The position numbers and the translations under genes are program-made. DNA of 61,040 nucleotides, taken from positions 1 to 61,040 of the IMG/VR virus record IMGVR_UViG_3300033233_000042; one strand, written 5' to 3'. This DNA is from a virus. Taxonomy: Duplodnaviria; Caudoviricetes. This document shows positions 1 through 61,040 of this stretch, piece after piece. The notes under the pieces are model-generated. The model did no database searches. It was not told where the DNA came from and saw nothing but the letters and a program-made list of their open reading frames with translations. Each line of letters begins with the position of its first letter. Position 1 is the stretch's first letter.

Positions 1-96
1 AACAGCTACCCCGCCCATTCCGATAGCTTCTACTGTATCCACAAAAGAAGGAGTAAATTTCTCTGTGACATGATCCTTTATGAATAAAGCGTCCAT
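1..96 (-). CDS. 5' end (partial) of large internal virion/ejection protein, copy A
   Basis: Reads MDALFIKDHVTEKFTPSFVDTVEAIGMGGVAV, matching the start of the 1300-aa ORF at 37245-41147. Confidence 0.85.
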   Translation of the reverse strand, partial: MDALFIKDHVTEKFTPSFVDTVEAIGMGGVAV

Positions 97-106
97 GTTA
101 CTTTCC

Positions 107-1720
107 CTACTCTATGACTGTATATTTCGGATCCTCTAGCATCTTGTTAATGGCACCCCAGAGAGTCTTATCATTTGTGTTCTCCACAGCCTTAGTGGCT
201 ACTTCTTGTAATTGATCCATGATCTTCCTAGCTTCCGCATAGTTTCCCTTGACAATCTGTTCTTCTAGTTGTCTCTTTAGCTCAAGGAACGACTTATAGT
301 ATCCTACATCAACTTTCTTTTCTTTTCTGGGCATACTAGGAACCCTGATACCATACACAGAACCAAGCAGGGCAGCTTGTCTCCTGAGTTCTTCTGCCTT
401 CTTACTGTCGGTCTTTTCTACTTCGTCCGCTTGTCTATATAACTGATCTATCTCTTCTGCAGCCCTAGCTTTTACATCAACATGCCTTTCCCAGGCATCA
501 CCACCGCTTCTTACGACTTTCCTAGCAGCCATCATAGCGTCATGTAACATTCTCGTGTTGAATTTGAGCCACTCCAGCTTGTTCTGCTCTAACATCTTAA
601 GATTCATTAGTTTTTCCTGGTGTGAAAGCGTCATATCTTTCAATATCGCATCCCGATCGTTTCTCAGCTTTTCCAAGAGGATGTCTCCATGCAGCTTTGC
701 CTTCTCTAACTCGAATTTGAATCGCTCCAGTTGGCGCTTATATTCTTCTTCGTCCATCTCCTTCCACTGCTTCATAACACTTGGTAGAGCGCTAGTAAAC
801 CCAAGAACAGAAGTCCCACCCATACCAATTGCAGCAAGACCTGTAATAGCAATCGCAAGATTTCTGAAGAGTTCATTCTTCTTTGTTTCATCCTTGATCT
901 CATAGTTTATGAGCGGCTTATACACCTCCAGTAGCTTATCGTATATTTTGTTGGACATATCCACATACTTGCTCATTAAGTCTGCCAGCTTAACATCCGC
1001 CTCTTCTGCTTTCTTTTTGTATTCCTCTATGTTCCCTTTGAACAACTCATTGATAGCACTAACTGTAGATTGCTCGATGATGGAGGGGCTTTCTCCTCCG
1101 AGAGCGGTTGCAAGTTTCTCATGCGTGCTGGACAAGGGGGAAGTGGAAAGCTTAGGTTCAGGGCTAGGCTTAGGGATCTTACCTGTTACTACGCTTTTTC
1201 CCTTACTTACTCTTGGTGCAAAACCTCCGGTTTCATCTACAATAGGAGTGTCTTTACCAACAAGCTTTACCAGCTCCCCTAGAACCTCTTTTTCCGCATC
1301 CGAAAGTCTACCTCCAGAAGCTTCAGTGGCCATAGAATAGGCATTTGCGAAGGATTCCATAGTATATGGGAACCCGCCATATTTCATTACTTCGAGCGCC
1401 TTCTTTACTTTCTCCTCGTTAAGCTTAGACATCAACTCCTGAACTTTGGCGCTTACATCTACCTCTTGCTTCTGCTCCTGTTGCTCTTGCTTTTGCTCTT
1501 GCCGCTTGGTCTCACTAGGGGATTGAGCAGGTTTACCAAACAGTTTCTGTAGGCCATCGTCTACAAAGGATAGAGATTTCCTAACGATCTCCGCTACTGT
1601 TCCGTAAGCATCCTGGGCACCAGGCTTGGGAATTTTCCCTGTTACTACCGTCTTCCGGTCATCGTCTTTAGGAACTGCCCCTACTACTACTGCATCCCCA
1701 ATAATTCCTTCCAAAGACAT
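107..1720 (-). CDS. Putative internal virion/DNA ejection protein (537 aa), copy A
   Basis: Long ORF with coiled coils and a Gly/Ala hydrophobic stretch, located after the nozzle module. Conserved in copy B. Confidence 0.6.
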   Translation of the reverse strand: MSLEGIIGDAVVVGAVPKDDDRKTVVTGKIPKPGAQDAYGTVAEIVRKSLSFVDDGLQKLFGKPAQSPSETKRQEQKQEQQEQKQEVDVSAKVQELMSKLNEEKVKKALEVMKYGGFPYTMESFANAYSMATEASGGRLSDAEKEVLGELVKLVGKDTPIVDETGGFAPRVSKGKSVVTGKIPKPSPEPKLSTSPLSSTHEKLATALGGESPSIIEQSTVSAINELFKGNIEEYKKKAEEADVKLADLMSKYVDMSNKIYDKLLEVYKPLINYEIKDETKKNELFRNLAIAITGLAAIGMGGTSVLGFTSALPSVMKQWKEMDEEEYKRQLERFKFELEKAKLHGDILLEKLRNDRDAILKDMTLSHQEKLMNLKMLEQNKLEWLKFNTRMLHDAMMAARKVVRSGGDAWERHVDVKARAAEEIDQLYRQADEVEKTDSKKAEELRRQAALLGSVYGIRVPSMPRKEKKVDVGYYKSFLELKRQLEEQIVKGNYAEARKIMDQLQEVATKAVENTNDKTLWGAINKMLEDPKYTVIE

Positions 1721-1729
1721 GACACCCTC

Positions 1730-2332
1730 CTATGCGCCCCAAGCTGTCTTTTGCCAGTCTTCCCAGGCTTTGCTCAGACTAGAAAATCCACTAGATAGAC
1801 CCTGCATAGCTCCAGATGTGGTTGCAGCTGTTGCCTGAGTTCCAGCAAGATACCCTTGCGTAGCGGTTCCGTAGGCCTGCAGTTCCCTGGTCAAAATATC
1901 AATATCCGCTTCTGCTAGCCCCTGCTGACTAAGAGCTGTCTTTAGCTGTTGATTCAGAAGATCATAATAAGTGTTCTGATACCATCTGTCCAACTCAGCC
2001 TTCGCCTGCAAAGCTACGGAGGAATTAGCTAACCCCCTAGCACTAAGATTGGACATGACCTGCTCATACTTCTGTCTATATGCTTCATCTAGCATGTTCT
2101 TATACTGAGGTAACAACTGTCCAGCACGATACTGCTCTAGAGCCTGGGCTATATTCTGTCTGGCTTGCTCAGAGAGACCACTGATAGAAGGGAGTCTAGC
2201 CCGGATTTGACTGAAGACCTCCCTTGGAATTTTCGGGCTAGGAGGCTTCGGAGCGTTTATAAGCCCATAAATAGACGTCCCTATTGCTGTTAAACCTGCT
2301 ATTGCTGTAATTATTGGTGCTACTGCCGCCAT
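1730..2332 (-). CDS. Putative ejection protein (200 aa), copy A
   Basis: Hydrophobic Ala/Gly N-terminus and Gln/Ala-rich helical body typical of podovirus ejection proteins; synteny. Confidence 0.6.
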   Translation of the reverse strand: MAAVAPIITAIAGLTAIGTSIYGLINAPKPPSPKIPREVFSQIRARLPSISGLSEQARQNIAQALEQYRAGQLLPQYKNMLDEAYRQKYEQVMSNLSARGLANSSVALQAKAELDRWYQNTYYDLLNQQLKTALSQQGLAEADIDILTRELQAYGTATQGYLAGTQATAATTSGAMQGLSSGFSSLSKAWEDWQKTAWGA

Positions 2333-2335
2333 GGC

Positions 2336-2848
2336 TTATCCTCCATACCATTTTCTAAACTGCTCTTCTATGTCAAACCCTTGTATTCCAAGTTCGGCCA
2401 TAGATCTATTGATACCCTCTTTCCATTCCTGCCACGACTTCTGTATATTACTAAAGTCGAGGTGAGAGCCAAATCTCCTGGATCCTTCTGTCGCAAGCTT
2501 AAATGTTTGATAAGCCTCCGGAGAACTGACGGTAGAAGCAATCTCTTGCGCAACAGGAGCTGTTCTCTGTTGATATGATTGTATATTCTTCTGCAAAGAA
2601 GACTGGAAGAAATCCCTAAGATTACTATAATCTCCGATTGCTCCCGTGGTTTGTGTTCTCTCTCCGTATGTCAACGCCTTCTGGAAGGCAGGACTTACCT
2701 TTTCACTATACTGCTTCATTAGAGCGCTCATTACCGTAGTATACAGATCAGAAGCAACATTGGGCGATGGACTAGAGGAGGAAATTCTCTGCATGAACTC
2801 CTGATATTCCTTCTGCCACTGTGGTATATGTGGTTTTCTCGCTCCCAT
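2336..2848 (-). CDS. Hypothetical virion-associated protein (170 aa), copy A
   Basis: AGGAGG RBS; conserved in copy B. Confidence 0.7.
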   Translation of the reverse strand: MGARKPHIPQWQKEYQEFMQRISSSSPSPNVASDLYTTVMSALMKQYSEKVSPAFQKALTYGERTQTTGAIGDYSNLRDFFQSSLQKNIQSYQQRTAPVAQEIASTVSSPEAYQTFKLATEGSRRFGSHLDFSNIQKSWQEWKEGINRSMAELGIQGFDIEEQFRKWYGG

Positions 2849-3182
2849 TTCTTATCCTCCTTAAGACCCATTTTCTGGCTTTGCTGTCCCAGTAGAGTAG
2901 ATGAGTAAACATTTCTTTCCCTAACCTAAGAAGGGACAGCACGTCTTTTATATCTTTTATACTTCCCCAGAAATGATATACTAGTCCCACTTCGCCTTCA
3001 AGTCTTAAGTCGTCTAGATAAAAATCCTGCGTTTCAACTATCCTTTTTGCGGTCTCTAGATCTGTTCTGCAGTAGACAACAAGAAAATCCCTATGGGCGA
3101 AGTAGAGACCGTTCTTAAGCATAGCATCAATTAACTCGAAGATTATCTTGTTCTGTTCTAGATGATATAGATACCTTTCCAC
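2772..3182 (-). CDS. Hypothetical protein (136 aa), copy A
   Basis: Conserved ORF in both copies. Confidence 0.65.
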   Translation of the reverse strand: MERYLYHLEQNKIIFELIDAMLKNGLYFAHRDFLVVYCRTDLETAKRIVETQDFYLDDLRLEGEVGLVYHFWGSIKDIKDVLSLLRLGKEMFTHLLYWDSKARKWVLRRIRNGSEKTTYTTVAEGISGVHAENFLL

Positions 3183-3750
3183 CCTTTAACCTCCTGAATT
3201 GCTCAGCTAAACAATCATATTGCAATACAAAGAACTTATGGATATCATCGCTAGTTAGAAAAGAACAAGCTCTATAAACCACCAACATTTTATAGACTTC
3301 TGGGATAAGATCATCTTTCTCTTCTTCATCGCTCTCTTTCTCAAATCGCTTAAACCATGGTAAGTAAACAACATCTAGAACGCCTTTGTAGATCCCAGCT
3401 GGAATCAAAATAATTCTGCCACCTTCTAGCCGATATCCACACGGATATATCTCTCTATCAAACAATCCCTTGCGCACTTCCGCTTGTATCCCCGGGGTAT
3501 CCAGCAACTTAACCCTTACGTCAGGAAACTGATAAGACGTAAAATAGACTCTCTTGGGAATACCTACAAAGCCGTCCACACCCCATCCATTTACCACGAA
3601 GGAACAACCATCATACAACTCCATGTCGCTCGCAACCCACAGTCTGGCAGAATTGATTGCTTCCACTAACCTGATTTCATCTATGCCCAGTTCTCGTGGT
3701 TCAATAAATACCCTAATACTTCTCAGATAATCACCAAGCCTAACTGACAT
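3127..3750 (-). CDS. Head-tail adaptor-like protein 2 (207 aa), copy A
   Basis: N-terminal helices (LVEAINSARLWVA) and C-terminal DDLIPE..LVVYRA pattern, resembling the 206-aa protein at 6127-6747. Confidence 0.5.
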   Translation of the reverse strand: MSVRLGDYLRSIRVFIEPRELGIDEIRLVEAINSARLWVASDMELYDGCSFVVNGWGVDGFVGIPKRVYFTSYQFPDVRVKLLDTPGIQAEVRKGLFDREIYPCGYRLEGGRIILIPAGIYKGVLDVVYLPWFKRFEKESDEEEKDDLIPEVYKMLVVYRACSFLTSDDIHKFFVLQYDCLAEQFRRLKGGKVSISSRTEQDNLRVN

Positions 3751-4114
3751 TGTATTCCTCCGATAACTGTTGAAACACTGCGTCTATATCCTGATGCATT
3801 ATATATTCTACCATCTTAAGTTGCTCAAAGGAACCAGCAGGTAAAATCTTTGGTATAAAGATAACAGGAACAGGAAGAGACGCTAGAACAGAATGTAACG
3901 TATCGTTCAAGAACTGATGAAACTGAAGATTGATCTGTATGAACTCTCTCTGATCTCTTACTTCTCTTAATATAAGCTCGAAAGGAAGAATTGTTGGGAC
4001 ATTCAGATTCAGAGAGCGAATGATCGCATTCGTAGTCTCAACAAAGCCAATATGATCTTGCGTAGCATTCTCAATAAATTTAAGCTCATCATCCTCTATC
4101 TTGACCCTAACCAT
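3740..4114 (-). CDS. Hypothetical virion protein (124 aa), copy A
   Basis: Conserved ORF directly downstream of the nozzle-like gene. Confidence 0.7.
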   Translation of the reverse strand: MVRVKIEDDELKFIENATQDHIGFVETTNAIIRSLNLNVPTILPFELILREVRDQREFIQINLQFHQFLNDTLHSVLASLPVPVIFIPKILPAGSFEQLKMVEYIMHQDIDAVFQQLSEEYNVS

Positions 4115-6123
4115 GCTGGAGTCTGCCCATAGAAGTAGTTGATTTCTCCAAGCAGAGTAAGCTTCATTTTGATAAAGTGAACATACATAAACACATCAGA
4201 ATCCTCCGAGAGCTCTAACCAGAGGTAAACGCCTTTCTTTTGCAGTGCAGGTTTATATCCAACCAGGTCAGTGTAGTATTGGACGAGCCTTTCAAAGACA
4301 TACTCATCATCGAATCCGACCTTTATTGGACAGGCCACATTAGTCTTTATGAGTATCTCTCGTATATATTTGTATCTCTTGATGCCGAGATCAAACGGAC
4401 ATAATCTGACTGTCATCGGATAATACGTAGTCTGACTGAACATCACATGTAATGCCACAGTCCCTGTTTGGCCAGGATATGGATATCCGACTAGAGAGCA
4501 ATTCTCGCCGTTGGGATTTGTGAAACTTCGTATTGCCCGAAAAGGAAGCTGAAACCATACGTCATATTCTATGCAGTAACAGAGCGTAAGGTCATTATAT
4601 CTATACGGAATAGCTAGACAATTCTTATCCTCAAACATAAACGTTCCAGCTTTGAAATGATCTAATAACGGAACCTGATCTGCAACAAGATTATCTATCC
4701 GCTCCAATGTATTCGTCCTGAGCTTGTATATTCCAGTTTTATCCACAAGGAAGATCAGGTCTCGTATCACCATTAGAGTCGAGTTAGAAAACGGCATCAG
4801 AATACCCGTGTCCAGGAGGTAAAAACTGGAAGGAATATTCGATGCCACACTAGCAGAGAGAATGAATAGGTTGCCGTCTGTGAACACATAAAGCATATCG
4901 TTGATGACGTAGAGCCAGCTTATCCAAGAGACCGTTGGATGTGTAATAAGTATATATCCCCCACCCTCGGTAGAAAGAAAAACATCCTTTGGTGGAGTCC
5001 CAGAAGTCCAAGCAAGACCACCGGTGTCAGCAAGCGTGGTAGATGTTGTTTCTACATATTGCCCCTCTCCGCCGCTTGTCGTCCCTCTCCAGACACGATA
5101 TTTAACAGCGCCAGACGGAGCATCCCACGTTAAAACAACTGTCCCGTTCTCTACGAAATTGGCATTCACCCAAGTGAGAGTTCCATTATCTACAAGAGAT
5201 GTTCCTGTGACGTCTACATACTGATTCTCCTGCCCAGCTGATGTTCCTCTCCACACTCTGTATCTAGATACACCTTCGACAGGAGACCAAGAGAGAGTCA
5301 CTGTCTTATTTGTGTTATCGGTCGTAGCAGATACTTCATTTGTAGCTCTATGAACATTATTTGCATCATCTAGGGAAGAGACACGGTAGTAATACGTCCC
5401 TGCCGCAAGATTCCCGCCAGCAGAAGCCAGTATAGTTAAATTTGTAGGGGCGACGTATATCGTAGCCTTAACTTCCACGCTGAGTCCTGTCCACCCACCA
5501 TCGCCGGCACTAGCAGAGATCTTATAATAATAGGTTCCTGTTAAATTGCCTCCAGAGGCATAATTTACCTTGGGATTTTGGGGAACCGTAGTATTGGTAG
5601 CAAAGTTTGTCTTGCTTACATCCTGAAAATCTACCGAGGAAAAGTAGAGCGTTTTACCATTGGCCACAAAGAGGCGACCTCGATAGACGCAAGCTCTATC
5701 ACCATTTGCAGTGTTGTATGTTGAAAGAAGAGTTCCATCTCGTTTAAATCTATAAATCTTGCTATTGGTAGTAACAAAAAAGAGCAGGTCATCATATCCA
5801 CCTGCCCACTGAACATCCTCATCTACCGTCACCTTAATAGACGTCTTGTTAACTGTATCTACAACCTCGCAGGACTTACCGAGCCAGAGATAAGCATACC
5901 TTCCATCGTTGTTGAACCCATTCAGAGCACCAAAAGAAGAAGTGAAGAAGGCGGTGCTCTTAGGAACTTTCTTCCACCCGAGCTTGAGGTCTGGCATGGC
6001 CGTGAGTTTCTGGCACATCCCAGGTTTGGTTGTGGCATCTCCAACATTAGTTGCCAATCCCAGGATGTGGAAGTCTTGTTCAACATTTTGAACAATCTCG
6101 CTCTGCTTCCTTCGCTTAGCCAT
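4096..6123 (-). CDS. Tail nozzle/stabilisation protein (P22 gp10-like) with inserted Ig/Fn3-like modules (675 aa), copy A
   Basis: Beta-propeller-like segments (YRGRLFVANGKTLYFSS, LYVINDMLYVFTD), size and position after the adaptor. Central GTYYY..W..YRVWRG repeats. Confidence 0.65.
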   Translation of the reverse strand: MAKRRKQSEIVQNVEQDFHILGLATNVGDATTKPGMCQKLTAMPDLKLGWKKVPKSTAFFTSSFGALNGFNNDGRYAYLWLGKSCEVVDTVNKTSIKVTVDEDVQWAGGYDDLLFFVTTNSKIYRFKRDGTLLSTYNTANGDRACVYRGRLFVANGKTLYFSSVDFQDVSKTNFATNTTVPQNPKVNYASGGNLTGTYYYKISASAGDGGWTGLSVEVKATIYVAPTNLTILASAGGNLAAGTYYYRVSSLDDANNVHRATNEVSATTDNTNKTVTLSWSPVEGVSRYRVWRGTSAGQENQYVDVTGTSLVDNGTLTWVNANFVENGTVVLTWDAPSGAVKYRVWRGTTSGGEGQYVETTSTTLADTGGLAWTSGTPPKDVFLSTEGGGYILITHPTVSWISWLYVINDMLYVFTDGNLFILSASVASNIPSSFYLLDTGILMPFSNSTLMVIRDLIFLVDKTGIYKLRTNTLERIDNLVADQVPLLDHFKAGTFMFEDKNCLAIPYRYNDLTLCYCIEYDVWFQLPFRAIRSFTNPNGENCSLVGYPYPGQTGTVALHVMFSQTTYYPMTVRLCPFDLGIKRYKYIREILIKTNVACPIKVGFDDEYVFERLVQYYTDLVGYKPALQKKGVYLWLELSEDSDVFMYVHFIKMKLTLLGEINYFYGQTPAWLGSR

Positions 6124-6126
6124 GTC

Positions 6127-6747
6127 CTAGCCTCTCGCTCGAACACTTCTGAAAAGCTCCATCTTCCACTGGTTATTAAAGAACTCTGCCAGAGTGAACT
6201 GCATATCATTCATAGCAAGCATATAAGCCATACGGAGAGCAACACAATCTAACAACTCGTCTGGGATAAGATCCTCCTGATCATAGAGATTATACATTTG
6301 ACTGACCAAAGGCGTATAGAGTATGTCGATATACTCATTCTCTTGGTGATTCCAGGTAGACGGAACAATAGATACTGTCTTCTCGACTTGATCGTATATA
6401 TACCCAATCGGTTCTACATCCTTTATAACATCGTCATAAGTAACCTGATCTAGCTTCTTAACATAGTTCCTATCCGGATTCACATAATACACACGCCACA
6501 CCCTAGAGATATTAGTAAGAGGGGCGTTACCAAGAATATACCAGGTGGTATAGAGATTCCATGTAGGACGGTCAAACCACCTAGCATATTTGTTAACGGA
6601 AGAATGCGTGCTCTTCTTGAGGCAAAAATTATCCGCTACATCCTGTCTGGCTTTATTGAGGATTCTATACAAAAGAGGTGATTCATCGTAGGCGACAGGA
6701 TAAAAATCAAACAGCCTACGGAAATAATCAGCCGCCGTTAGGCTCAT
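6127..6747 (-). CDS. Head-tail adaptor-like protein 1 (206 aa), copy A
   Basis: Position between capsid and nozzle; LYRILNKARQDVA and EDLIPDELLDCVALRMAY patterns. Confidence 0.55.
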   Translation of the reverse strand: MSLTAADYFRRLFDFYPVAYDESPLLYRILNKARQDVADNFCLKKSTHSSVNKYARWFDRPTWNLYTTWYILGNAPLTNISRVWRVYYVNPDRNYVKKLDQVTYDDVIKDVEPIGYIYDQVEKTVSIVPSTWNHQENEYIDILYTPLVSQMYNLYDQEDLIPDELLDCVALRMAYMLAMNDMQFTLAEFFNNQWKMELFRSVRARG

Positions 6748-7067
6748 GCCTTCCTAGTCCGTCTCTCTATTACCTTTCCTGTCTCAAACTGCAAACCCTT
6801 TAAGTAATCAATAGTCACAATATTGACTTTATCTGCATCTGGATCGTCCTTAAGCTCTTTCATTACAGCAGGCTCAAACTTCAAGAACTCGAGCCTCTTT
6901 CTGCATACGTCGTAATGATGATCGTCGGTAGCCCCATAGCCCAGGAACTCCACACAGAGAGCATCTGGGACTACCGTGTCTGCATTTGGGTCTAATTCGT
7001 ATATCTTCCCATCCGTTCTATCAAAGAGGATGAGCCTCCTGTCCTGATTCTTAACTATCATGCCCAA
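6744..7067 (-). CDS. Hypothetical protein (107 aa), copy A
   Basis: Conserved ORF downstream of the capsid gene. Confidence 0.7.
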   Translation of the reverse strand: MGMIVKNQDRRLILFDRTDGKIYELDPNADTVVPDALCVEFLGYGATDDHHYDVCRKRLEFLKFEPAVMKELKDDPDADKVNIVTIDYLKGLQFETGKVIERRTRKA

Positions 7068-7076
7068 TCTCCTCTG

Positions 7077-8141: not shown

Positions 8142-8150
8142 CTCTCTCTA

Positions 8151-51794: not shown

Positions 51795-51796
51795 CT

Positions 51797-52393: not shown

Positions 52394-52693
52394 TTACACC
52401 CCCTCTAAGAAGTCGACTAACCTACCAAAAGGAATGGTAGGCAAGAATGTCGCTTCTTTCTTAATTAAGCTTATCTCTTCCGAGGTCAGCTCAATCACAT
52501 CGTCATCGCTCATAACCTTCTTTAACAACGTCCAGCACTTCATCTTGTGTTCAATATCTTTGGAGTCATCCCTAGCAAGAGATGCTAAGATAGCGTTCCG
52601 ATAAGTAATTTCAGTATTGTCGCCAGCAAAGACCATTGGTTCACCATTCAATCCCAACATGACCTTATCTAAATCTTCCTTTTTGAACTTCAT
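52394..52693 (-). CDS. Hypothetical protein (99 aa), copy B
   Basis: Orthologue of 10852-11151. Confidence 0.65.
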   Translation of the reverse strand: MKFKKEDLDKVMLGLNGEPMVFAGDNTEITYRNAILASLARDDSKDIEHKMKCWTLLKKVMSDDDVIELTSEEISLIKKEATFLPTIPFGRLVDFLEGV

Positions 52694-52694
52694 C

Positions 52695-53114: not shown

Positions 53115-53394
53115 AAGCCTTCACCTTCTGTAATGCCATTTCTACTGCCAGATTCAAAACAGAAAGCCCAACATCTATCCCGATATTCTTAGCAGCATCC
53201 CCGAGCTGCTTAACAGCTTCTGTTCTCTTTTGCTCAGAGGTAAGAGTATTATTCTGCATGAGCTTTGTAACAATATCTACCGCCACAGGAAGAAGCTTTT
53301 CTAGATACTCCACAATACCCCGCTCGAACAACGAGAGGATGAACCTCTCTAGCCAACTTAGCTTAGATAAAATCAACTGCTTAATGTTATTCAT
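53095..53394 (-). CDS. Holin-like protein, copy B
   Basis: Orthologue of 11553-11852. Confidence 0.5.
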   Translation of the reverse strand: MNNIKQLILSKLSWLERFILSLFERGIVEYLEKLLPVAVDIVTKLMQNNTLTSEQKRTEAVKQLGDAAKNIGIDVGLSVLNLAVEMALQKVKAYGDKAN

Positions 53395-53641
53395 TCTGCT
53401 TTCCTCCTATCGGTCTCTTGGTTGTTAATCTCAATGCCAGATTGACCATAGCAAACAACCCAAGCCCTATTGCCTGTATGTCTTGCTGTGATGTTACACC
53501 TCCTGCCTTGTAGTCCACAATCGCAGCAATAAGAGCAGCTATGTTGAACCATACGGTCTTGCTATAATACCAATTCTTATTGTTACCAATCTCATGCCCA
53601 ATGTCAAATATTTCCTTAATTATTCGCCACATGTTCCGCAA
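53387..53641 (-). CDS. Holin-like membrane protein, copy B
   Basis: Orthologue of 11845-12099. Confidence 0.65.
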   Translation of the reverse strand: MRNMWRIIKEIFDIGHEIGNNKNWYYSKTVWFNIAALIAAIVDYKAGGVTSQQDIQAIGLGLFAMVNLALRLTTKRPIGGKQNE

Positions 53642-55346
53642 GCTCCTTTACTGCTTTAAACAACAATGCCAACATATCCAAAATGTTTATCGAGCATTTA
53701 CCATCTTCCTCGTTTACCGTTACACCCATCGGGAACACATCTTTCACATAGTTAGCTATAAACCCGACATGCTCCCTCTGGTCTACCTTGAACAGATATT
53801 TATAGACATCTATGCTCTTCATTAAGTTGAGTGCGGAATCAGAAAATAGCTCGATATTCTCTTTCGTAGACAGATCGGATCCCTGATAAACAGTTCCTGC
53901 CACACTAAGATTATCATAAAGCAATACCGTCCTAGTAGTGCTACCTGATCCGAATATAAAGAAGTTCCCATTAGAGCCGAGTCCTATCGTGCTATCATAA
54001 TCTGGATTTCCCCACGAGATCTTATTGCCATTCCCGCTTGTCGGCATAAGAATACAAGCGGAACCGGTGAAATTGTTATAACCGTTACGGAAGTTCAACC
54101 CGTAAGTATCTGAAGATGTAGTCTGAATATCTATATGTCGGAATGTCGGAGTAGAAGATAAGGAAACATTCCCGGATATTGTTCCATTCACAGTAAGATT
54201 ACCACTTATGGTTACATTAGATCCTACCGTCATCTGCCCGCCGGCACTGATATTCCCTGCTACACTAAGGTCATCATAGATTAACACTAACCTATTAGGA
54301 CTTGTTCCTGATCCGAATATAAAAAACTGTCCACTGTTATTAAGTCCTATCGTGCTATCAGAATCTGGATTTCCCCATGAGATCTTATTACCTGCCCCAC
54401 TTGTCGGCATAAGGACACATGCAGAACCGGTAAAATTATTATAACCACCCCGGAAATTCAACCCATAGGTATCTGAGTATGTGGTTTTAATGTCTACATG
54501 TTGGAACGTAGGAGTAAGGGTTCCACCACCACCACTACTACTACCACCACTACTACTTATCGTTCCATTTACAGTTAAATTACCACCTATAATTACATTA
54601 TCATAAATATATACTGTCCTGTTAGGACTGACACCTGACCCGATTATAAAAAATATACCACCACTACTAAGTCCTATCCTACTACCGCCCGCTGGATCAG
54701 TATCCCATAAGATTTGATTACCATTTCCACTTGTCGGCATAAGGATACATGCAGAGTTGGTAAAATTATTAACTCCACCGCGGAAATTCAATCCATAAGT
54801 GTCAGAGGATGTAGTCTTAATATCTATACGTTGGAACGTAGGAGTGGGTGTAGGAGATACAGTCCCGGTTATTGTTCCATTCACAACAAGGTTGCCATCA
54901 ACATAAACATCATCACTTAAGATCATCGATCTCCTGCCACTGCTGTTATAACGACCAATAATTCTGAAATTACCGCTAGTATCTACACCTATCTTAGACT
55001 CTCCGACTCCCCAACCCCCAGACGTAGGTTGCCATTGAATGGCAGAGCCCGGAACACCGGTCGGCATCTTAATAGCAGCCTGATTAAATCCTTGCGGGTT
55101 TGAGGATATATCTACAGCAAAATCAACCTTGTTAAGATTAGATATCGTGACAGAGTTTACAACAACATTCCCAGATATTGACCCACCACCGGAAATATAG
55201 TCAGATTTTATCTTACCAGACAGCGGAGTCCCATTTTCAAACACATCCGATAATGCCTGAAAGTTTTCATTCGCTTTCTGCAGGTCATCTCTAACCTGAG
55301 TCGGACTTGTTCCATCATAATTGAACGGAGTGCTATACCAGCCCAT
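53616..55346 (-). CDS. Modular tail fibre/spike with S74-like chaperone (576 aa), copy B
   Basis: Same N- and C-termini as 12074-14683, with four repeat modules. Confidence 0.85.
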   Translation of the reverse strand: MGWYSTPFNYDGTSPTQVRDDLQKANENFQALSDVFENGTPLSGKIKSDYISGGGSISGNVVVNSVTISNLNKVDFAVDISSNPQGFNQAAIKMPTGVPGSAIQWQPTSGGWGVGESKIGVDTSGNFRIIGRYNSSGRRSMILSDDVYVDGNLVVNGTITGTVSPTPTPTFQRIDIKTTSSDTYGLNFRGGVNNFTNSACILMPTSGNGNQILWDTDPAGGSRIGLSSGGIFFIIGSGVSPNRTVYIYDNVIIGGNLTVNGTISSSGGSSSGGGGTLTPTFQHVDIKTTYSDTYGLNFRGGYNNFTGSACVLMPTSGAGNKISWGNPDSDSTIGLNNSGQFFIFGSGTSPNRLVLIYDDLSVAGNISAGGQMTVGSNVTISGNLTVNGTISGNVSLSSTPTFRHIDIQTTSSDTYGLNFRNGYNNFTGSACILMPTSGNGNKISWGNPDYDSTIGLGSNGNFFIFGSGSTTRTVLLYDNLSVAGTVYQGSDLSTKENIELFSDSALNLMKSIDVYKYLFKVDQREHVGFIANYVKDVFPMGVTVNEEDGKCSINILDMLALLFKAVKELAEHVANN

Positions 55347-55358
55347 ATATTACACCTC

Positions 55359-55724
55359 CTAACCAGATTTCTTTACTTTGAGAGCAAGACCGCCTTTATT
55401 GATGGAGAATGTTATCCCGTTGATTATAGAGATGGGAGAGTCTAGGACAAATGTATAGACAATAGTCCCGTTAGAGTTAATAAAGTAGATTTCATTCACA
55501 TAACCCCAATTTCCTGTTGCAGTAGGAAACGTAATCGCAGAAGAATTAGTATAGTAATAATACGTGCCGTCGTCATGATCATACGAGAACAAACCAGACC
55601 CGACACTCACACGTGAGTATCCACCACCGCTAATTTCAGTTCCATTATATCCCAGACCGACCGATGCAACATTGTTCAAGTCATTTATAATTGCGTCAGA
55701 TGCTGTTCTTGTAATGACTAACAT
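55359..55724 (-). CDS. Tail-associated beta-rich protein (121 aa), copy B
   Basis: Divergent orthologue of 14696-15061. Confidence 0.6.
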   Translation of the reverse strand: MLVITRTASDAIINDLNNVASVGLGYNGTEISGGGYSRVSVGSGLFSYDHDDGTYYYYTNSSAITFPTATGNWGYVNEIYFINSNGTIVYTFVLDSPISIINGITFSINKGGLALKVKKSG

Positions 55725-56920
55725 AGTGTTACCTCCTCTAGGACATATAGTTCGTCATTGTAAACAAAACCATAAGTATTCTGGCTATTATCAGACAACA
55801 TAAATGTCTGTTTCGGCGCAATAACGTCACCGGATACAGCCACGTCACCCTCGCCAGAATACCTAATATCGACATTAGCAAGCTCCGTCTGTAAACTTAA
55901 CAACCCTACAGAAGAACAAATAACATGAGTAATCAGGAAAGTAAAGAGGTCATTACCAGAACACAGACCAAAGACATTCTGACCACTACTATCACAGAAT
56001 AAACAACTATATTCTGGGAAGTTATACAGATATACACCAGACAAACTAACTTCTAATGAGGTAGAGTAACCGAGATCCACCATATTAGCAAAGAAACCGT
56101 CGACATCTACAGTAGCAACACTAGAGAAAGACAAGCTCCTACCTGTAACAATCTCTGTGAGATCGATAACACCACTTACACTAACGCTTGTATCTAGTAC
56201 CACAGCTTCACACACCACATCGTTTAGACTAAACGCAAAAGTATTCTGGTTGCTGTCACAAAACAGATAAGTATAATTAACAGGGATAAATATAGCATGC
56301 TCTGTGCTTATAGTGACACAACCAGGGATTGACGAACTTCCCACATGCCCACCAATAAAATAACCATAGATCGGAACAAGATAACCAGAAGAGTATCTGA
56401 ATGTAACACCAACAAATCTGGAACTTATGGACATATCACCGGACGATGTGCAGAAAATAGACAACATCGCCTTTTGATCACCCGAAATAGACAGCTCAGA
56501 TACAATATCACGAGAGAACGTCCCTATAACACTGGATACATAATCAATAATGCCCTCTTGCCCAGAGGAAGAAAGCACAGCAGAAGGAGAAACATAACCG
56601 GTAGGAGGAACAACACTTGCAGATAAACCACCATCAACAACAACATCACAACTCGAGGCAAAAGAGAGATCCATACTATCTACACTACCAGACAATACAA
56701 AAACATTCTTCTTAGACACATTGTTCGGATCCGGCAACCACAAGAGCAAATACCAAAGAAAAGGATATCTCACATCAAACCCAATCGCAACAGATACCCC
56801 AATCCACCAGGTGGTATACTGCTTCCAAGTAGGACGATCTGTCCACTTGCCTCTTCTAATTGTATACGCTAGGGGGGATTCAATACCCTCGAAATTTTTA
56901 GGTTGCCATTCGTTTATCAC
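55718..56920 (-). CDS. Virion structural protein, long allele (400 aa), copy B
   Basis: N-terminus orthologous to 15063-15665. Confidence 0.65.
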   Translation of the reverse strand: MINEWQPKNFEGIESPLAYTIRRGKWTDRPTWKQYTTWWIGVSVAIGFDVRYPFLWYLLLWLPDPNNVSKKNVFVLSGSVDSMDLSFASSCDVVVDGGLSASVVPPTGYVSPSAVLSSSGQEGIIDYVSSVIGTFSRDIVSELSISGDQKAMLSIFCTSSGDMSISSRFVGVTFRYSSGYLVPIYGYFIGGHVGSSSIPGCVTISTEHAIFIPVNYTYLFCDSNQNTFAFSLNDVVCEAVVLDTSVSVSGVIDLTEIVTGRSLSFSSVATVDVDGFFANMVDLGYSTSLEVSLSGVYLYNFPEYSCLFCDSSGQNVFGLCSGNDLFTFLITHVICSSVGLLSLQTELANVDIRYSGEGDVAVSGDVIAPKQTFMLSDNSQNTYGFVYNDELYVLEEVTLC

Positions 56921-57687
56921 ATCCCTAGCCTCCGCTTGATTTCATCTATCTCTGCTAAGATGTCCCTGCCAGATACGAACAATCGGTCATACACATCCAC
57001 TCTTCTATAGCTAGACCCAGCATAAGGCCTACCTACAATAGCAAATTGACCAGGGAAAGAAGGCTTAGTAGAATTCGTTAGAACACCCACAAAAGAATCA
57101 TACCCCCAATTGCCACTATCCGGAACCCAATGGATAAGAGAAGAGTAATACTGCCCACTACCAGGGAGGACAATCGCCCCCTTAGAACAACCTGCGCCAT
57201 TCCCAGCGTTGAACCAGGACATATCTATACACGCTTCCACATTAGAGCGAATGAGCTTCTGAGAAAAGTAAATACCTGTCATGTAAAAATCCGAAAGGTC
57301 TATCCCGTCCTGCCAGTAGCCCATAATATGTATAGCGCAAGAGCAGGGTTTGGCCACCTCGTTTGTAGCAGTGCAGATGTGTAAACCGCAGATAAACGGA
57401 TCCGGAATTTCTGTCCTAGCAGGTTTTACACCAACTCTTGTTGTATTGGCGTCCAGCTCTAGGGCTATACATACCTTCCCACCAGCATCGGATGTGACCA
57501 CAAAATTCGCACCCCAAATATACTGCCTGCCATTGTGATCGTCTATGTCTGAAAAAATGTTTACAATGTTGTTCTTGGCTGGATTAGGAATGTTCGGATT
57601 GTCAGATGTGCGAACAAATACACCTACTGCCTGCCCTACGTCTATAGTGTTAATGTTGCTATAGACTACAACAGGATTCCCACTCAA
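56917..57687 (-). CDS. Fibre-like virion protein, copy B
   Basis: Orthologue of 15662-16432; TTG start after GGAGG. Confidence 0.65.
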   Translation of the reverse strand: MSGNPVVVYSNINTIDVGQAVGVFVRTSDNPNIPNPAKNNIVNIFSDIDDHNGRQYIWGANFVVTSDAGGKVCIALELDANTTRVGVKPARTEIPDPFICGLHICTATNEVAKPCSCAIHIMGYWQDGIDLSDFYMTGIYFSQKLIRSNVEACIDMSWFNAGNGAGCSKGAIVLPGSGQYYSSLIHWVPDSGNWGYDSFVGVLTNSTKPSFPGQFAIVGRPYAGSSYRRVDVYDRLFVSGRDILAEIDEIKRRLGM

Positions 57688-57700
57688 AGAAGCACCTCCA

Positions 57701-59176
57701 TTATTTCCCTTTCTCCTGCTCTTTGGCTTCCTGAACAAGTGCCGCCTCCCTCGCTCTCTGTATCATAACTTTTATCCTATCCTTATGCGGAATAGGTAGT
57801 AGCTCTATCGCTACCTCGGGCGGTATAAGACCACGTGCGTTCAGTTCTAGGACAAGCGTAGTAAAATTCTGCAAGAGAACAGGAGATGTGGTGTGGGCAT
57901 ATACCTCTACCCTGAGGGGCGTCTTTGCCAGAAGAGGAAACTTGTCTGTGCACAGGACTTTATACATGGCATACAGGGTCATTACACGTTCGATGAATTG
58001 CTCAAATTTGAGGGCACGGACAATCACTTCCGAAGATGCAAACTGAGATGCTAAGAGAGCATGTGTGTATGACCTTACATTCTTGGCGCTGTGACCAAGC
58101 ATGACTTCCGATATGCCGACTGTATCCAGGATGTTTCTCTCATACCGGTCAGACAAGGTAGAAAGAACACCTGGATCTATCTTGGGAACAACTTCTTCTA
58201 CAGCCATGTCCGGACTATCTACGAGAACTACACCAGAAGGCTTCCTTAGCTCGTTAACTACATCCTCTCTAGTTAAAAGACCCTGGAAGGACTTCAGGAT
58301 GACCGGAGGATAGGCTAATCTCTCCACCAAGGAAGGAAGCTGTTCTTCTATGTCGTTTATCCCTTCCTGTGCCGGTATGCACTGCTCGCCGTTTACAAAG
58401 CCATAGATATTGCCAGGAAGGTAAGATGGGACGTAGAAGGCGAAAGGATGATCAGATACGAATGGGGATTTGAAGTGGTCACGAATGGTATAATCTAAAC
58501 CCAGTGTGGCCACATAGCACGAACCCTCTCCTGGGTCTTTATACCAGACTTCGTAGACTTCGTAATACTCGTTCGGGTTTAAATCTGTGATGCGTGTGAG
58601 TTCGTCTGTAGAGCCTACTACATCGAAGAATCTGCTAAAGGGAGAAACTGTTCTGTCTGGAATAGATACCTTGCCGAACCGCTTTTCATACTCGTCTCTA
58701 CCCATACGGAGCACATAAACAAGAATCTGTGAGTCGTCGTCCATCTCTAGGTCGGGATAATAGAAAAGAATATCGAAAGGAAAGACTGGACGGAATTTGA
58801 CACCGTCTTTTCTAGGTTCTACACGGAGACCAATAAAACCCCAGAGCTCGCCTAGTTTGGCTAAATCATACAGAATGACATCTACACCCTCTCTGTAAAA
58901 ACCATCCTGCACCTCCTTTAGCAGAGCATCCGATACGTCTGGTTGGAGCTCAAAAATGACATTGTCAGAACGATAGATCAGAGAGGAAATTAAGTTGATA
59001 TATCTGCGAAGAACATTCTTGGAAGTTCGGATGTCTATGAATGACTCTAGGACACGTAGGTATCTATCCACTAAAGCAGGACGTCTGGATATGCAAGTGG
59101 ATACGATCTCCCGAAGCTCTTCCTCAGATTTGCGCCTGTCCTGCTTAATAAATTTCTCAGATTCCACTACCTTCAT
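57701..59176 (-). CDS. Portal protein, copy B
   Basis: Orthologue of 16446-17921. Confidence 0.75.
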   Translation of the reverse strand: MKVVESEKFIKQDRRKSEEELREIVSTCISRRPALVDRYLRVLESFIDIRTSKNVLRRYINLISSLIYRSDNVIFELQPDVSDALLKEVQDGFYREGVDVILYDLAKLGELWGFIGLRVEPRKDGVKFRPVFPFDILFYYPDLEMDDDSQILVYVLRMGRDEYEKRFGKVSIPDRTVSPFSRFFDVVGSTDELTRITDLNPNEYYEVYEVWYKDPGEGSCYVATLGLDYTIRDHFKSPFVSDHPFAFYVPSYLPGNIYGFVNGEQCIPAQEGINDIEEQLPSLVERLAYPPVILKSFQGLLTREDVVNELRKPSGVVLVDSPDMAVEEVVPKIDPGVLSTLSDRYERNILDTVGISEVMLGHSAKNVRSYTHALLASQFASSEVIVRALKFEQFIERVMTLYAMYKVLCTDKFPLLAKTPLRVEVYAHTTSPVLLQNFTTLVLELNARGLIPPEVAIELLPIPHKDRIKVMIQRAREAALVQEAKEQEKGK

Positions 59177-59436
59177 AGCTCGCCTTTCTTAACACCAGAT
59201 TTGCCGTAGGCTTCATACCTAACCGGGTTGGACTTAAACACATCCGCTATGCCAGAAAAATCTTCCACATGCGCCTCTCTACTAAGAAGAGAACGAGCTT
59301 CGGACATGTCTATGTAACCAGGAGAAGAGAGTAACCGCTGGTTTTGTTTAGCCTGATACCGACCCTCCTCGCACTGCTCCAACAACCTTTCCTGTAACTG
59401 AGAACGCTTGCCTTTTACGATAATATACATGGCCAC
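59173..59436 (-). CDS. Hypothetical protein (87 aa), copy B
   Basis: Orthologue of 17918-18181. Confidence 0.7.
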   Translation of the reverse strand: MAMYIIVKGKRSQLQERLLEQCEEGRYQAKQNQRLLSSPGYIDMSEARSLLSREAHVEDFSGIADVFKSNPVRYEAYGKSGVKKGEL

Positions 59437-59487
59437 CTCCTAGAGTAATCCAAGATAACAATAACAAAAAGAAAGAAAAAAGCAAGA

Positions 59488-59591
59488 GAAAAATAAATGC
59501 CCGATAGGCAAGAACTTAACCTACCGGGCAAAACTGCTTGATCCTGAACCTCTCCCCAGAGATATAATAGACAAAGACCAGGAGATGTCAA
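59488..59591 (-). ncRNA. Candidate promoter + ~70-nt small RNA + terminator cassette, copy B only
   Basis: Minus strand TTGACA(59591-59586)-N16-TATTAT, then an 11-bp stem TGCCCGGTAGG/CCTATCGGGCA with one G-U pair and TTTATTTTT. Confidence 0.45.
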
Positions 59592-59675
59592 TGGAATTTT
59601 ATCGGTGGGGGGAGGGATGACACGGCGCCCAGCAATAGCATCCGATCCGTCCCATTGGCGTAGTGCGCACTATCT

Positions 59676-59739
59676 GAATGACCGTTCAGTCACGCAAGGA
59701 ATGACCGACTAGTCACTACGTGAATGACCATTCAGTCAC
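59676..59739. repeat. Three tandem GAATGAC-N5-AGTCAC units, copy B
   Basis: Units start at 59676, 59699 and 59722. Confidence 0.85.
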
Positions 59740-59806
59740 CCAAGAGCAAGGAAGCAATGGTTCCCATAGAAACTTAACTGGCGCCAAGTAAGGCTTGCGT
59801 AAGCTT

Positions 59807-59825
59807 AGGAATGATTATCGTTATC
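59807..59825 (-). promoter_or_regulatory. Fur-box-like site, copy B
   Basis: GATAACGATAATCATTCCT, 15/19 match to the Fur consensus. Confidence 0.45.
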
Positions 59826-60949
59826 GATATAGCAAGCCAAACATAAGTAAAGCAAAGACTTGCCAATGATTAGCAATTGCAAAGAACAAGCTCGTTGAAT
59901 AATCAGCAAGGAAGCAATCGATAATCGTTCTTGTTCGCAAAGAGAAAGCAACCGTTCGATTAATTCTAAGGCTAACAGAAAACTAAGAAGAAGCTAGCCG
60001 AAGTTAGCTAAGCCTAACCGAATAGCTAAGCACAAACAAAGCAAGGAAAGATAAAACGACTAAGAGAAGAAAAACTAAGCTAAGCAAGGCAACCGAACAA
60101 CCTTTAGGCTAACCACTAGGAAGAACAAACAATCGTTAGCCACTAACGCTTAGGCCTAGGTTGCTAAGCTTGCTAGGGAAGAAACTATGAAGCTATGGCC
60201 GGCTATGATTGACTATGATGAGCCTTAAACAAGCGTTTAAATTGACCCAAGTTGCCGAAATTACTAGAGAAAACACGAAAATTTGTGCTCTAGTTGCTAA
60301 TGGTTGTTATTTGCATTTAAACAAGCGTTTAACATGATCTAAGTAGTTGAAAATACTAGGGATAGTCGGAAAATTAGTCTCACCTAACCCTTTGGCCTCT
60401 TGGGATTTTTAAATTTCGTGGAAACTTTTTGTCTAGAACACATAGTCGTTAGTCTTTGTTAATGTAATCAAATACTTAGATTTTGTTCTTAAACAAGACG
60501 ACTATATTACCTAGATGGAATATTTCAATGATTTTAGGTAGTTAGATCAACATCGTAGTATGAGACTAACTTGACAAACCATAGTCGACTATGATGGGAA
60601 GCTAGATATTCCAAAGCCGTCTTTGGAATGTCAAGAAAATGAGATCAATTTTTTTATTTTCTAGGGGGTAATACTTTCTTTCACGAAGTTAATTTCCCAA
60701 GAGAGGGAATACTAGCTAGAGGGAAGAATAGCAAATTTTCCCTTCCTAGTCAAACAAAAAGAGGGAAGTTTCCCTTCTTGGATGTTAAGGAAGATCTTCT
60801 CTTTGCTAACCAAAAGGTTGCTTTGCTAACCGATATTGCTTCCATATTGGCGAACAGGCTTTCTTCTTCGGCTAAGGGATGGATTTTTTCTTTCTGGTAG
60901 TCTTGCCTTTGCTTCCCAAAGTTTCCTTCTCTTGGCATAAACGAATAAC

Positions 60950-60978
60950 TTGACAAAAACTTGTGTCTTAGGTATAAG
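60950..60978 (+). promoter_or_regulatory. Sigma70-type early promoter, copy B
   Basis: Identical to 19365-19393, followed by the RBS and the amidoligase ATG at 61032. Confidence 0.85.
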
Positions 60979-61040
60979 CTATATTGCGTTTAACCACAAA
61001 CTATAACTTAAACCAAAAGGAGGGTTTTAAAATGGCTTTT

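What the first reader, a model, noticed from the sequence alone, without database searches (positions are those of the whole stretch)
1..61040. Two diverged genomes of the same phage joined head-to-tail, with no integrase, att site or host DNA
Seen: 1-19455 recurs at 41052-61040 with the same gene order. The copies differ by abundant, mostly synonymous substitutions (only about a dozen amino-acid changes in the capsid and fewer in the portal) and by wholesale swaps in the fibre loci. A replication concatemer or terminal redundancy would be identical, so this is a heterodimer of two strains. Inference: it is either a real tandem array or recombinant hetero-concatemer (the phage encodes RecT, which tolerates divergence) carrying two alternative host-recognition sets in one molecule, or an assembly chimera of co-occurring relatives crossing at a shared identical stretch. 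19338-19455 equals 60923-61040 exactly (118 nt), so 19338-60922 could be one 41,585-bp circle.
Basis: partly seen in the sequence, partly recalled or inferred. Interest (0 to 1): 0.85.

Follow-up and report, generated by a model that had tools for sequence, protein, structure and literature searches.

The report
Chimeric contig of two phage strains
The 61-kb record is most likely one complete ~41.6-kb phage genome with a 19-kb piece of a co-occurring related strain stuck on by the assembler, not a real double genome.

Summary
Window 1-19455 recurs at 41052-61040 in the same gene order at 82-85% nucleotide identity, with swapped tail-fibre loci. The last 118 nt equal 19338-19455 exactly. The window is a whole IMG/VR virus record, classed linear. 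It holds 1.47 genome units, not two: methyltransferase, RecT, helicase, large terminase and a 1300-aa gene occur once. Both contig ends cut genes.

A relative (G001) closes as a single-copy 40.6-kb circle with a 127-nt terminal repeat and is colinear with window 19338-60922.

In the best-holding sediment run, exact contigs on strain A have depth 24.6-25.3. Exact contigs on the single-copy region have depth 8-15.6. An 82%-identical second haplotype of that region has depth 24 and differs from the window about as much as the separate metagenome contig L011 does.

Best reading, about 0.8: an assembly chimera crossing at a conserved 118-nt promoter stretch. A real hetero-tandem or hetero-concatemer is not excluded (about 0.07), because no raw reads could be laid. 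No integrase, tRNA or host DNA was found. Interest is low.

The parts
1..19455 (-). Copy A: a fragment of phage strain A. It holds minus-strand genes for virion, tail-fibre and lysis functions, plus the ORF-poor region up to the early promoter. The contig start truncates it.
   Evidence: Self-blastn; ORFs; PHROG hits for the fibres. Exact Logan pieces on this part have depth 24.6 and 25.3.
1..96 (-). First 32 codons of strain A's copy of the 1300-aa gene, cut off by the contig start.
   Evidence: The translation of 96->1 is identical in its 32 residues to the N-terminus of ORF 37245-41147.
19338..19455 (+). R, first copy: the 118-nt stretch shared exactly by A and B. It holds TTGACA, a 17-nt spacer, TATAAG, a GGAGG ribosome site, and the ATG at 19447 with two further codons of the first early gene. 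It is the proposed crossing point.
   Evidence: Exact match; sequence read. The promoter reading is my own inspection: the consensus scan did not list it because the last base of the second hexamer is not T.
19338..60922 (.). One complete genome unit of 41,585 bp (strain B circle) with every gene present once.
   Evidence: The period between the two copies of R is 41,585. The unit is colinear with G001, a 40,754-bp record with a 127-nt direct terminal repeat.
19456..41051 (.). Single-copy region. Early genes on the plus strand: amidoligase-like 19447-20223, DNA methyltransferase 21758-22711, RecT 25438-26184, metal-dependent hydrolase 27378-27992, CHC2 zinc-ribbon primase-like 29210-30121, helicase 31856-33289. 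On the minus strand: large terminase 34341-36146 and the 1300-aa ORF 37245-41147.
   Evidence: PHROG and Pfam scans. Exact Logan pieces here have depth 8.0, 13.7, 15.5 and 15.6.
41052..61040 (-). Copy B: the virion, fibre and lysis module of strain B (19,989 bp) plus the ORF-poor region. It ends in the second copy of R.
   Evidence: Self-blastn; PHROG scans.
60923..61040 (+). R, second copy. It forms the 3' end of the contig.
7077..8141 (-). Major capsid protein, copy A. Copy B lies at 48128-49192.
   Evidence: phrog_9953 major head protein, E 5.6e-07, for copy B. 12 of 354 residues differ between the copies.
16446..17921 (-). Portal-like 491-aa protein, copy A. Copy B lies at 57701-59176.
   Evidence: phrog_156 portal, E 7.5e-06, for copy B. 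9 of 491 residues differ.
9355..10845 (-). Tail fibre, A type (496 aa). B has three ORFs in its place: 50579-51511, 51525-51794 and 51797-52387. Only the N-terminal part is homologous (10523-10845 against 52053-52387).
   Evidence: phrog_1980, E 8.4e-18; phrog_7809, E 4.1e-19, for B's 310-aa protein.
12074..14683 (-). Tail fibre, A type (869 aa, with internal repeats). The B counterpart at 53616-55346 has 576 aa.
   Evidence: phrog_33119 and phrog_1980. 64% identity over the aligned part, with 312 unaligned positions. Internal repeats seen.
15063..15665 (-). 200-aa protein in A. The B counterpart at 55718-56920 has 400 aa and is 48.5% identical over 200 aligned positions.
   Evidence: No family hit.
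11153..11572 (-). Endolysin-like 139-aa protein, copy A. Copy B lies at 52695-53114.
   Evidence: phrog_938 endolysin, E 2.5e-13, for copy B. 14 of 139 residues differ.

Best explanation
The record is a metagenome assembly chimera. Several related strains of one ~41-kb phage co-occur in the sediment sample.

Strain B was assembled all the way round its circular or circularly permuted genome (window 19338-60922, 41,585 bp). The walk stopped when it came back to a 118-nt stretch it had already used (60923-61040 = 19338-19455).

That stretch is the conserved early promoter, ribosome site and first three codons of the first early gene, and it is identical in strain A. A 19.3-kb fragment of strain A (window 1-19337) was therefore joined there to strain B's early region instead of to its own.

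Strain A's own early and terminase half is probably a separate contig of the kind represented by L011 (Ga0334722_10002196).

Shown here: the repeat anatomy, the single-copy unit, the closed single-copy relative, the unequal contig depths, and the presence of diverged early-region haplotypes.

Inferred: that the A-to-early junction is not present in real molecules, and that L011-like DNA is A's missing half.
For: (1) Record type and content. The record is a whole IMG/VR virus record classed linear. Both ends cut genes. It holds 1.47 units, with terminase, RecT, helicase, methyltransferase and the 1300-aa gene once each.

(2) Contig end. The 3' end is an exact 118-nt copy of 19338-19455. A graph walk that re-enters a used node would leave this. 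The A segment is bounded at both ends by its most B-like stretches: 94% identity in 1-250 and 96% in 19251-19455, against about 83% overall.

(3) Relatives are single-copy. G001 has a 127-nt direct terminal repeat and is colinear with 19338-60922 right round. G002, a 32-kb linear record, crosses the junction with one copy of each side. That is 2 of 2 relatives in IMG/VR. The two capsid scans, the fibre scan and the portal scan found only these two. The first-early-gene, methyltransferase and 46-nt exact-pattern scans found none.

(4) A and B are independent lineages. G002 is 89.9% identical to A over 2794-9757, but B is only 82.6% identical to A there. dS between A and B is about 0.3 to above 3.

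(5) Depths in run X1, which holds 0.85 of the sampled words. 790 Logan contigs were laid: 210 at >=99% identity, 118 at 95-99%, 193 at 90-95% and 269 under 90%. The sample therefore holds a swarm of strains. Of the 8 X1 pieces listed:
- 2 of 2 exact pieces on A have depth 24.6 and 25.3.
- 4 of 4 exact pieces on the single-copy region have depth 8.0, 13.7, 15.5 and 15.6.
- A diverged piece on 27875-28820 (166 differences plus 2 gaps in 946) has depth 24.

(6) L011. This separate 22,463-bp metagenome contig differs from the window at 169 of 946 positions over the same stretch. It starts at the homologue of 19838. By length arithmetic, it would end near the homologue of about 41000, which is where the A fragment begins.

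(7) Known artefact class. Passages read in the CheckV paper (PMC8116208) describe IMG/VR contigs with duplicated regions of at least 20% of their length as assembler artefacts. Passages read in Roux et al. [quoted passage not shown]
Against: No raw reads could be laid, only Logan contigs. No read or pair was seen that either bridges or fails to bridge 19337/19338...19455/19456.

Only 8 of the 790 X1 pieces were listed, and depth is one figure per contig.

The two exact A pieces lie in fibre genes. Several strains could share those alleles, which would inflate A's depth.

I do not know that X1 is the sample the record was assembled from.

The far end of L011's contig could not be fetched, so its fit to the A fragment rests on length arithmetic that assumes no further indels.

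The left end of the contig shows no exact shared stretch of k-mer length (only 18 nt exact), so the break there is not explained by a node shared with B.

In-vivo recombination at the same 118-nt stretch would leave the same sequence.
Confidence: 0.8

Rival explanations
1. Bubble (theta) artefact. Two real mosaic phages share the same early/terminase half (19456-41051) and differ only in the virion/fibre half. The assembler walked arm A, the shared half, then arm B.
For: Phage mosaicism makes a shared module plausible. The contig reads arm A, then single-copy, then arm B, and ends on re-entering the single-copy part.
Against: The shared half should then be at least as deep as arm A. Instead the exact pieces are 8-15.6 against 24.6-25.3. 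The contig start shares only 18 exact nt with 41052 onward, not a k-mer-length overlap. A diverged early haplotype with A-like depth exists in the run.
Confidence: 0.08
2. Real molecule: a hetero-tandem or recombinant hetero-concatemer of two strains formed in co-infected cells, for example by RecT-mediated annealing at the identical 118 nt. It would carry two fibre sets.
For: RecT is encoded. The crossing lies at an exact shared stretch, as homologous recombination would require. Nothing in the sequence alone tells an in-vivo crossing from an in-silico one.
Against: Such intermediates would be rare next to monomer genomes and should give 1:1:1 depth. A and the single-copy region differ about 1.6- to 3-fold in the best-holding run. 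61 kb or more is about 1.5 times the unit that a relative closes at, so one capsid could hardly package it. This is an inference from the 95-97% identical capsid proteins.
Confidence: 0.07
3. Two related prophages integrated in tandem in a host chromosome.
For: Tandem double lysogens are known for temperate phages (recalled, not checked here). A period of about 41 kb would fit.
Against: There were 0 matches to tyrosine or serine recombinase models in six frames at E<=1. There are 0 tRNA genes. No host-like stretch was seen: all annotated genes are phage-like or unknown. Two pattern-limited scans of 185,579 species genomes with terminase and capsid found no relative. That is a weak negative, because only close relatives can be found this way.
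Confidence: 0.02
4. One phage genome above 61 kb with an ancient internal duplication of its virion module.
For: CheckV's completeness figure for the record is 64%, which would imply a longer genome.
Against: A is closer to another record (G002, 89.9%) than to B (82.6%), so the two copies are separate circulating lineages. Both IMG/VR relatives are single-copy, and one closes at 40.6 kb. Both copies are under strong purifying selection.
Confidence: 0.01

Closest known systems
Contigs with concatenated or duplicated genomes in IMG/VR, as described in the CheckV paper (PMC8116208; passages read)
   Same: More than one genome unit sits in one contig. Each copy of the duplicated region covers about 32% of the record, against the paper's filter of 20% or more. 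The record comes from IMG/VR. The paper attributes such contigs to the assembler.
   Different: Those cases are the same genome repeated and are detected by a k-mer frequency above 1. Here the copies are only about 83% identical, so the 21-mer frequency is 1.018 and a k-mer test would not flag the record.
Inter-strain chimeric contigs in viral metagenome assembly (Roux et al. 2017, PMC5610896; passages read)
   Same: [quoted passage not shown] The sample holds many related strains.
   Different: The usual chimera replaces one part with another. Here the walk also completed a full circle, so the homologous modules of both strains sit in one contig and mimic a head-to-tail dimer.
Direct terminal repeats of circular genomes assembled from short reads (for example the 127-nt repeat of relative G001)
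   Same: The 3' end repeats earlier sequence exactly, which marks closure of a circle of 41,585 bp.
   Different: The repeat partner lies 19.3 kb inside the contig rather than at its 5' end, so repeat-based tools class the record as linear.
Replication concatemers and terminal redundancy of headful-packaging phages (recalled)
   Same: Head-to-tail order of genome units.
   Different: Copies in a concatemer or terminal redundancy are identical. Here they differ at about 17% of bases, with dS around 1.

Membership tests
Assembly artefact: contig holding more than one genome unit (CheckV 'duplicated region' class) | A large duplicated region spanning at least 20% of contig length | tested here: met
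   Copies of 19,455 and 19,989 bp lie in a 61,040-bp record.
Assembly artefact: contig holding more than one genome unit (CheckV 'duplicated region' class) | k-mer frequency clearly above 1.0 (identical copies) | tested here: not met
   The mean 21-mer occurrence is 1.018, because the copies are about 83% identical. The record is therefore a diverged-strain variant of the class, not the classic same-genome repeat.
Inter-strain chimeric contig | Parts of the contig belong to different genomes present in the same sample | tested here: inconclusive
   Contig depths are unequal: 24.6-25.3 on A against 8-15.6 on the single-copy region. A diverged early haplotype has depth 24 and matches L011 in its number of differences. 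These are contigs only, 8 of 790 pieces were listed, and B's depth was not measured.
Inter-strain chimeric contig | The junction lies in a stretch identical between the two genomes | tested here: met
   The 118-nt exact stretch at 19338-19455 equals 60923-61040.
Inter-strain chimeric contig | No reads or pairs support the junction | not testable with these tools
   Only Logan contigs were available for the runs found. The read laying cap was one call.
Tandem prophages | Integrase and att sites, flanked by host DNA | tested here: not met
   PF00589 and PF00239 gave 0 matches in six frames. There are 0 tRNA genes. Both ends of the record lie inside phage genes.
Replication concatemer or terminal redundancy | Repeated units are identical in sequence | tested here: not met
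   Identity is 82-85%, and the fibre loci are swapped.
Closed circular genome marked by a terminal repeat | The same sequence stands at the 5' and 3' ends of the contig | tested here: not met
   The start aligns to 41052 with only 18 exact nt, and the end matches 19338-19455. IMG/VR classes the record as linear.

The most novel reading that the evidence does not exclude
The A-to-early-region-to-B linkage exists in real DNA. It would be a hetero-concatemer or tandem array formed by recombination between two co-infecting strains at the conserved 118-nt early-promoter stretch, carrying two alternative tail-fibre sets on one molecule, and abundant enough in a sediment community to be assembled.
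Probability: 0.07. Interest if true: 0.6.

Novelty: not a real feature. Interest (0 to 1): 0.1.

Why it matters
Taken at face value, the record would overstate this phage's genome size (61 kb instead of about 41.6 kb). It would double-count capsid, portal and fibre genes. It would also suggest a phage that carries two host-recognition sets.

The copies are only about 83% identical, so k-mer based duplicate checks would not flag the record (21-mer frequency 1.018). Terminal-repeat checks call it linear. Such records can therefore slip into reference sets and distort completeness estimates and clustering.

The useful biological content is more modest. There is a complete 41,585-bp genome of a poorly annotated sediment phage, with few PHROG or Pfam hits. 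There is also a side-by-side view of how two co-occurring strains differ: strong purifying selection on virion proteins and wholesale exchange of fibre C-terminal parts.

Tried and rejected
Known phages. A megablast of 1-20000 against 50,697 phage records found no match.

Relatives in IMG/VR. Seven scans were run. The two capsid scans, the fibre scan and the portal-like scan each found the same two records. The first-early-gene scan, the methyltransferase scan and the 46-nt exact-pattern scan found none. No independent contig was therefore found that links an A-identical virion module to any early region.

Metagenome contigs. Its record is not held for further fetching, so its far end could not be compared with window 1-1300.

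Host or prophage search. Two pattern-limited scans of genome contigs, with terminase and with capsid, found nothing. These reach only close relatives, so this is no evidence about host or lifestyle.

Assembler k-mer reasoning. I tried to explain the 118 nt as k-1 of a k=119 graph. I rejected this as unsupported. The left end of the contig shows no matching signature (first mismatch at base 19), and the assembler is unknown to me.

Depth by bins. One search, table 2, shows a drop from 161.8 to 58 to 16.6 across the junction in X1. I do not rely on it. The bins sum all strains at 80% identity or more, and the tool says a filter leaves records out.

Run X2. It holds only 0.10 of the sampled words and mostly diverged pieces. 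I draw no conclusion on habitat or strain from it.

CheckV completeness figures (64, 56 and 48% for G000, G001 and G002) imply inconsistent genome sizes and were not used.

Supplementary files of the two papers were not opened; the CheckV extended data on concatenated contigs may hold cases like this one.

Full report
WHAT THE RECORD IS

The window is the whole record: one contig of 61,040 bp. It is an IMG/VR virus record classed 'linear', with a CheckV completeness figure of 64%. G+C is 43.4%. No known phage record matches its first 20 kb by megablast.

CHECK OF THE OBSERVATION

- 1-9348 pairs with 41052-50378 at 82.6% identity.
- 10523-12342 pairs with 52053-53887 at 82.6%.
- 15433-18239 pairs with 56688-59494 at 85.3%.
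- 18245-18693 pairs with 59593-60039 at 81.2%.
- 18802-19455 pairs with 60411-61040 at 84.9%.

Between these blocks the fibre loci are unalignable or about 70% identical.

The last 118 nt (60923-61040) equal 19338-19455 exactly. The run is bounded on the left by a mismatch and on the right by the end of the contig.

I compared 22 gene pairs. dN/dS could be computed for 20 of them and is 0.012-0.365; in the other 2 dS was saturated. It is at most 0.13 in all computable pairs outside the three fibre-locus pairs. dS is 0.28 to above 3. The capsid differs at 12 of 354 residues and the portal-like protein at 9 of 491.

The fibre differences are modular:
- A has a 496-aa fibre where B has ORFs of 310, 89 and 196 aa. 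Only the N-terminal part is homologous.
- A's 869-aa fibre corresponds to a 576-aa one in B.
- A 200-aa protein in A corresponds to a 400-aa one in B.

CONTENT OF THE UNIT

The stretch 19456-41051 is single-copy. On the plus strand it carries:
- an amidoligase-like first early gene (real start ATG at 19447; PF12224, E 1e-07);
- a DNA methyltransferase (phrog_56, E 3.5e-66);
- RecT (phrog_148, E 1.7e-56);
- a metal-dependent hydrolase;
- a CHC2 zinc-ribbon primase-like protein;
- a helicase (phrog_1967, E 6e-47).

On the minus strand it carries the large terminase (phrog_2, E 2.1e-19) and a 1300-aa ORF with no family hit.

The duplicated part carries capsid, portal-like protein, fibres, endolysin and many proteins with no family hit.

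The record therefore holds 1.47 units, not two genomes. The period is 41,051 bp measured from the starts of the copies and 41,585 bp between the two copies of the 118-nt stretch. Copy B is 534 bp longer than copy A.

Both contig ends cut genes. Bases 96->1 encode the first 32 residues of a second copy of the 1300-aa protein. The 3' end stops three codons into the first early gene.

Six-frame searches found no tyrosine or serine recombinase. There are no tRNA genes and no Rfam family matches.

THE 118-NT STRETCH

Read directly, it holds TTGACA, 17 nt, TATAAG, then a GGAGG ribosome site and ATG GCT TTT. I read it as the early promoter and 5' leader, which would explain its conservation between strains. 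The consensus scan did not list it, because the second hexamer lacks the final T, so this is an inference.

The A segment is bounded at both ends by its most B-like stretches: 94% identity in 1-250 and 96% in 19251-19455, against about 83% overall.

RELATIVES

Seven scans of IMG/VR were run. The two capsid scans, the fibre scan and the portal-like scan found the same two records; the other three found none.

G001 (40,754 bp) has a 127-nt direct terminal repeat. The CheckV paper attributes repeats of assembler k-mer length (it names 55, 77 and 99 bp) to assembly of a circular template (passages read); that 127 is such a k-mer length is my recollection of assembler defaults. G001 is colinear with window 19338-60922 all the way round and has one copy of everything.

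G002 (32,173 bp, linear) crosses the virion-to-early junction with one copy of each side.

G002 is 89.9% identical to A over 2794-9757. B is only 82.6% identical to A there. A and B are therefore separate circulating lineages, not a duplication that diverged within one genome.

The capsid proteins of A, B, G001 and G002 are 95-97% identical.

EVIDENCE FROM A PUBLIC RUN

A sediment-metagenome run, X1, holds 0.85 of the sampled words of 14500-24400. Only Logan contigs, not reads, were available.

I laid them on 9456-29455 at 80% identity or more. 790 X1 contigs fit: 210 at >=99%, 118 at 95-99%, 193 at 90-95% and 269 under 90%. The sample therefore holds a swarm of related strains over both the virion part and the early part.

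Eight X1 pieces were listed:
- The 2 exact pieces on strain A have depth 24.6 and 25.3.
- The 4 exact pieces on the single-copy region have depth 8.0, 13.7, 15.5 and 15.6.
- A diverged piece at 24792-25361 (110 differences) has depth 5.3.
- A diverged piece at 27875-28820 (166 differences plus 2 gaps in 946) has depth 24.

The variant table agrees. At 25220, for example, the window's allele accounts for 13.8 of a total depth of 64.4.

A CANDIDATE FOR STRAIN A'S MISSING HALF

It starts at the homologue of window 19838 and runs through the early region at 74-88% identity.

Over 27875-28820 it differs from the window at 169 of 946 positions. That is about the same count as the depth-24 piece in X1.

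Up to its base 10,383 it corresponds to window 28919. If there are no further indels, its remaining 12,080 bp would end near the homologue of 41,000, just where the A fragment begins (window 1 is homologous to 41052).

This fits a picture in which strain A was split into two contigs and one of them was joined to strain B. I could not fetch the contig's far end, so this remains an inference.

BEST EXPLANATION (about 0.8)

The record is an assembly chimera. Strain B's circle (19338-60922) was walked completely and the walk ended on re-entering the 118-nt node. A 19.3-kb fragment of strain A was joined at that same node to B's early region.

The literature passages I read describe the two ingredients. 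IMG/VR contigs with large duplicated regions arise from assemblers (PMC8116208). Chimeric contigs arise where co-existing viruses share highly similar regions (PMC5610896).

This case would escape a k-mer frequency check, because its 21-mer frequency is 1.018.

WHAT SPEAKS AGAINST THIS, AND THE RIVALS

- No raw read was seen.
- Only 8 of 790 pieces were listed.
- The exact A pieces lie in fibre genes, which several strains might share.
- B's depth was not measured.
- I do not know that X1 is the source sample.
- In-vivo recombination at the same stretch would look identical in sequence.

The rivals are:
- A bubble of two real mosaics sharing one early half (0.08). This is disfavoured because the shared half should then be at least as deep as A.
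- A real hetero-tandem or hetero-concatemer (0.07).
- Tandem prophages (0.02). There is no integrase, tRNA or host DNA.
- An ancient internal duplication (0.01).

I could not reconstruct the assembler's exact path. An attempt to read 118 as k-1 of a k=119 graph fails at the left end of the contig.

VERDICT

The head-to-tail heterodimer is most likely not a real feature. What is real is a complete, poorly annotated 41.6-kb sediment phage genome plus a 19-kb fragment of a co-occurring sister strain with exchanged fibre modules.

Interest is low. The decisive test is read-pair and depth mapping in the source sample, together with an alignment of the whole Ga0334722_10002196 contig to the window's start.

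Noticed in passing
window 12351-13954 (A fibre) and 53896-54897 (B fibre): Both large fibre genes contain internal direct repeats. In A, 12585-12931 pairs with 13242-13588 at 79.8%, including a 104-nt exact run. In B, 53896-54515 pairs with 54256-54845 at 70%. Logan contigs of two runs show a joint 13561->13242 ('goes back 320'), which suggests strains with a different number of repeat units.
   Followed up: partly
window 18231-19446 and 59437-61031: A stretch of 1.2-1.6 kb between the divergent virion and early operons has no ORF of 80 aa or more in either copy and is 74-96% conserved. It has no Rfam match. It could hold regulatory sites, an origin or small RNAs.
   Followed up: partly
window 2768-3182 (and 43825-44239): This is the most conserved part of the duplicated region: 90-93% identity, exact runs of 67 and 69 nt, and dS 0.28 for the 136-aa ORF against about 0.8-1.5 for most other gene pairs. 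It coincides with overlaps between ORFs 2336-2848, 2772-3182 and 3127-3750. That suggests dual-coding constraint or a programmed frameshift site.
   Followed up: no
window 36116-36146; L004 4807-4836: The listed TTG start of the large terminase is probably wrong. In relative G001 the second codon of the homologous extension is a stop, and an ATG ten codons downstream starts the conserved protein. In the window that ATG puts the start at 36116.
   Followed up: yes
records G000, G001, G002: The CheckV completeness figures shown for the three related records are 64% of 61,040 bp, 56% of 40,754 bp and 48% of 32,173 bp. They imply expected genome sizes of about 95, 73 and 67 kb. These disagree with one another and with G001's closure by a 127-nt terminal repeat.
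   Followed up: no
window 37245-41147, 41149-42777, 45147-47174: Three large virion-module proteins (1300, 542 and 675 aa) have no convincing Pfam or PHROG family. The best hit is a weak phrog_8040 match at E 2.7e-04 for the 675-aa protein. No tail tube, sheath or tape-measure family was recognised, so the tail type of this phage is unknown.
   Followed up: no
L011 6112-7182: The related metagenome contig carries about 1.1 kb with no counterpart in the window, between the homologues of 26464 and 26407-26513. It lacks about 270-350 bp that the window has at 22775-23047 and 23588-23913. Small indel cassettes therefore distinguish the early regions of these strains.
   Followed up: no
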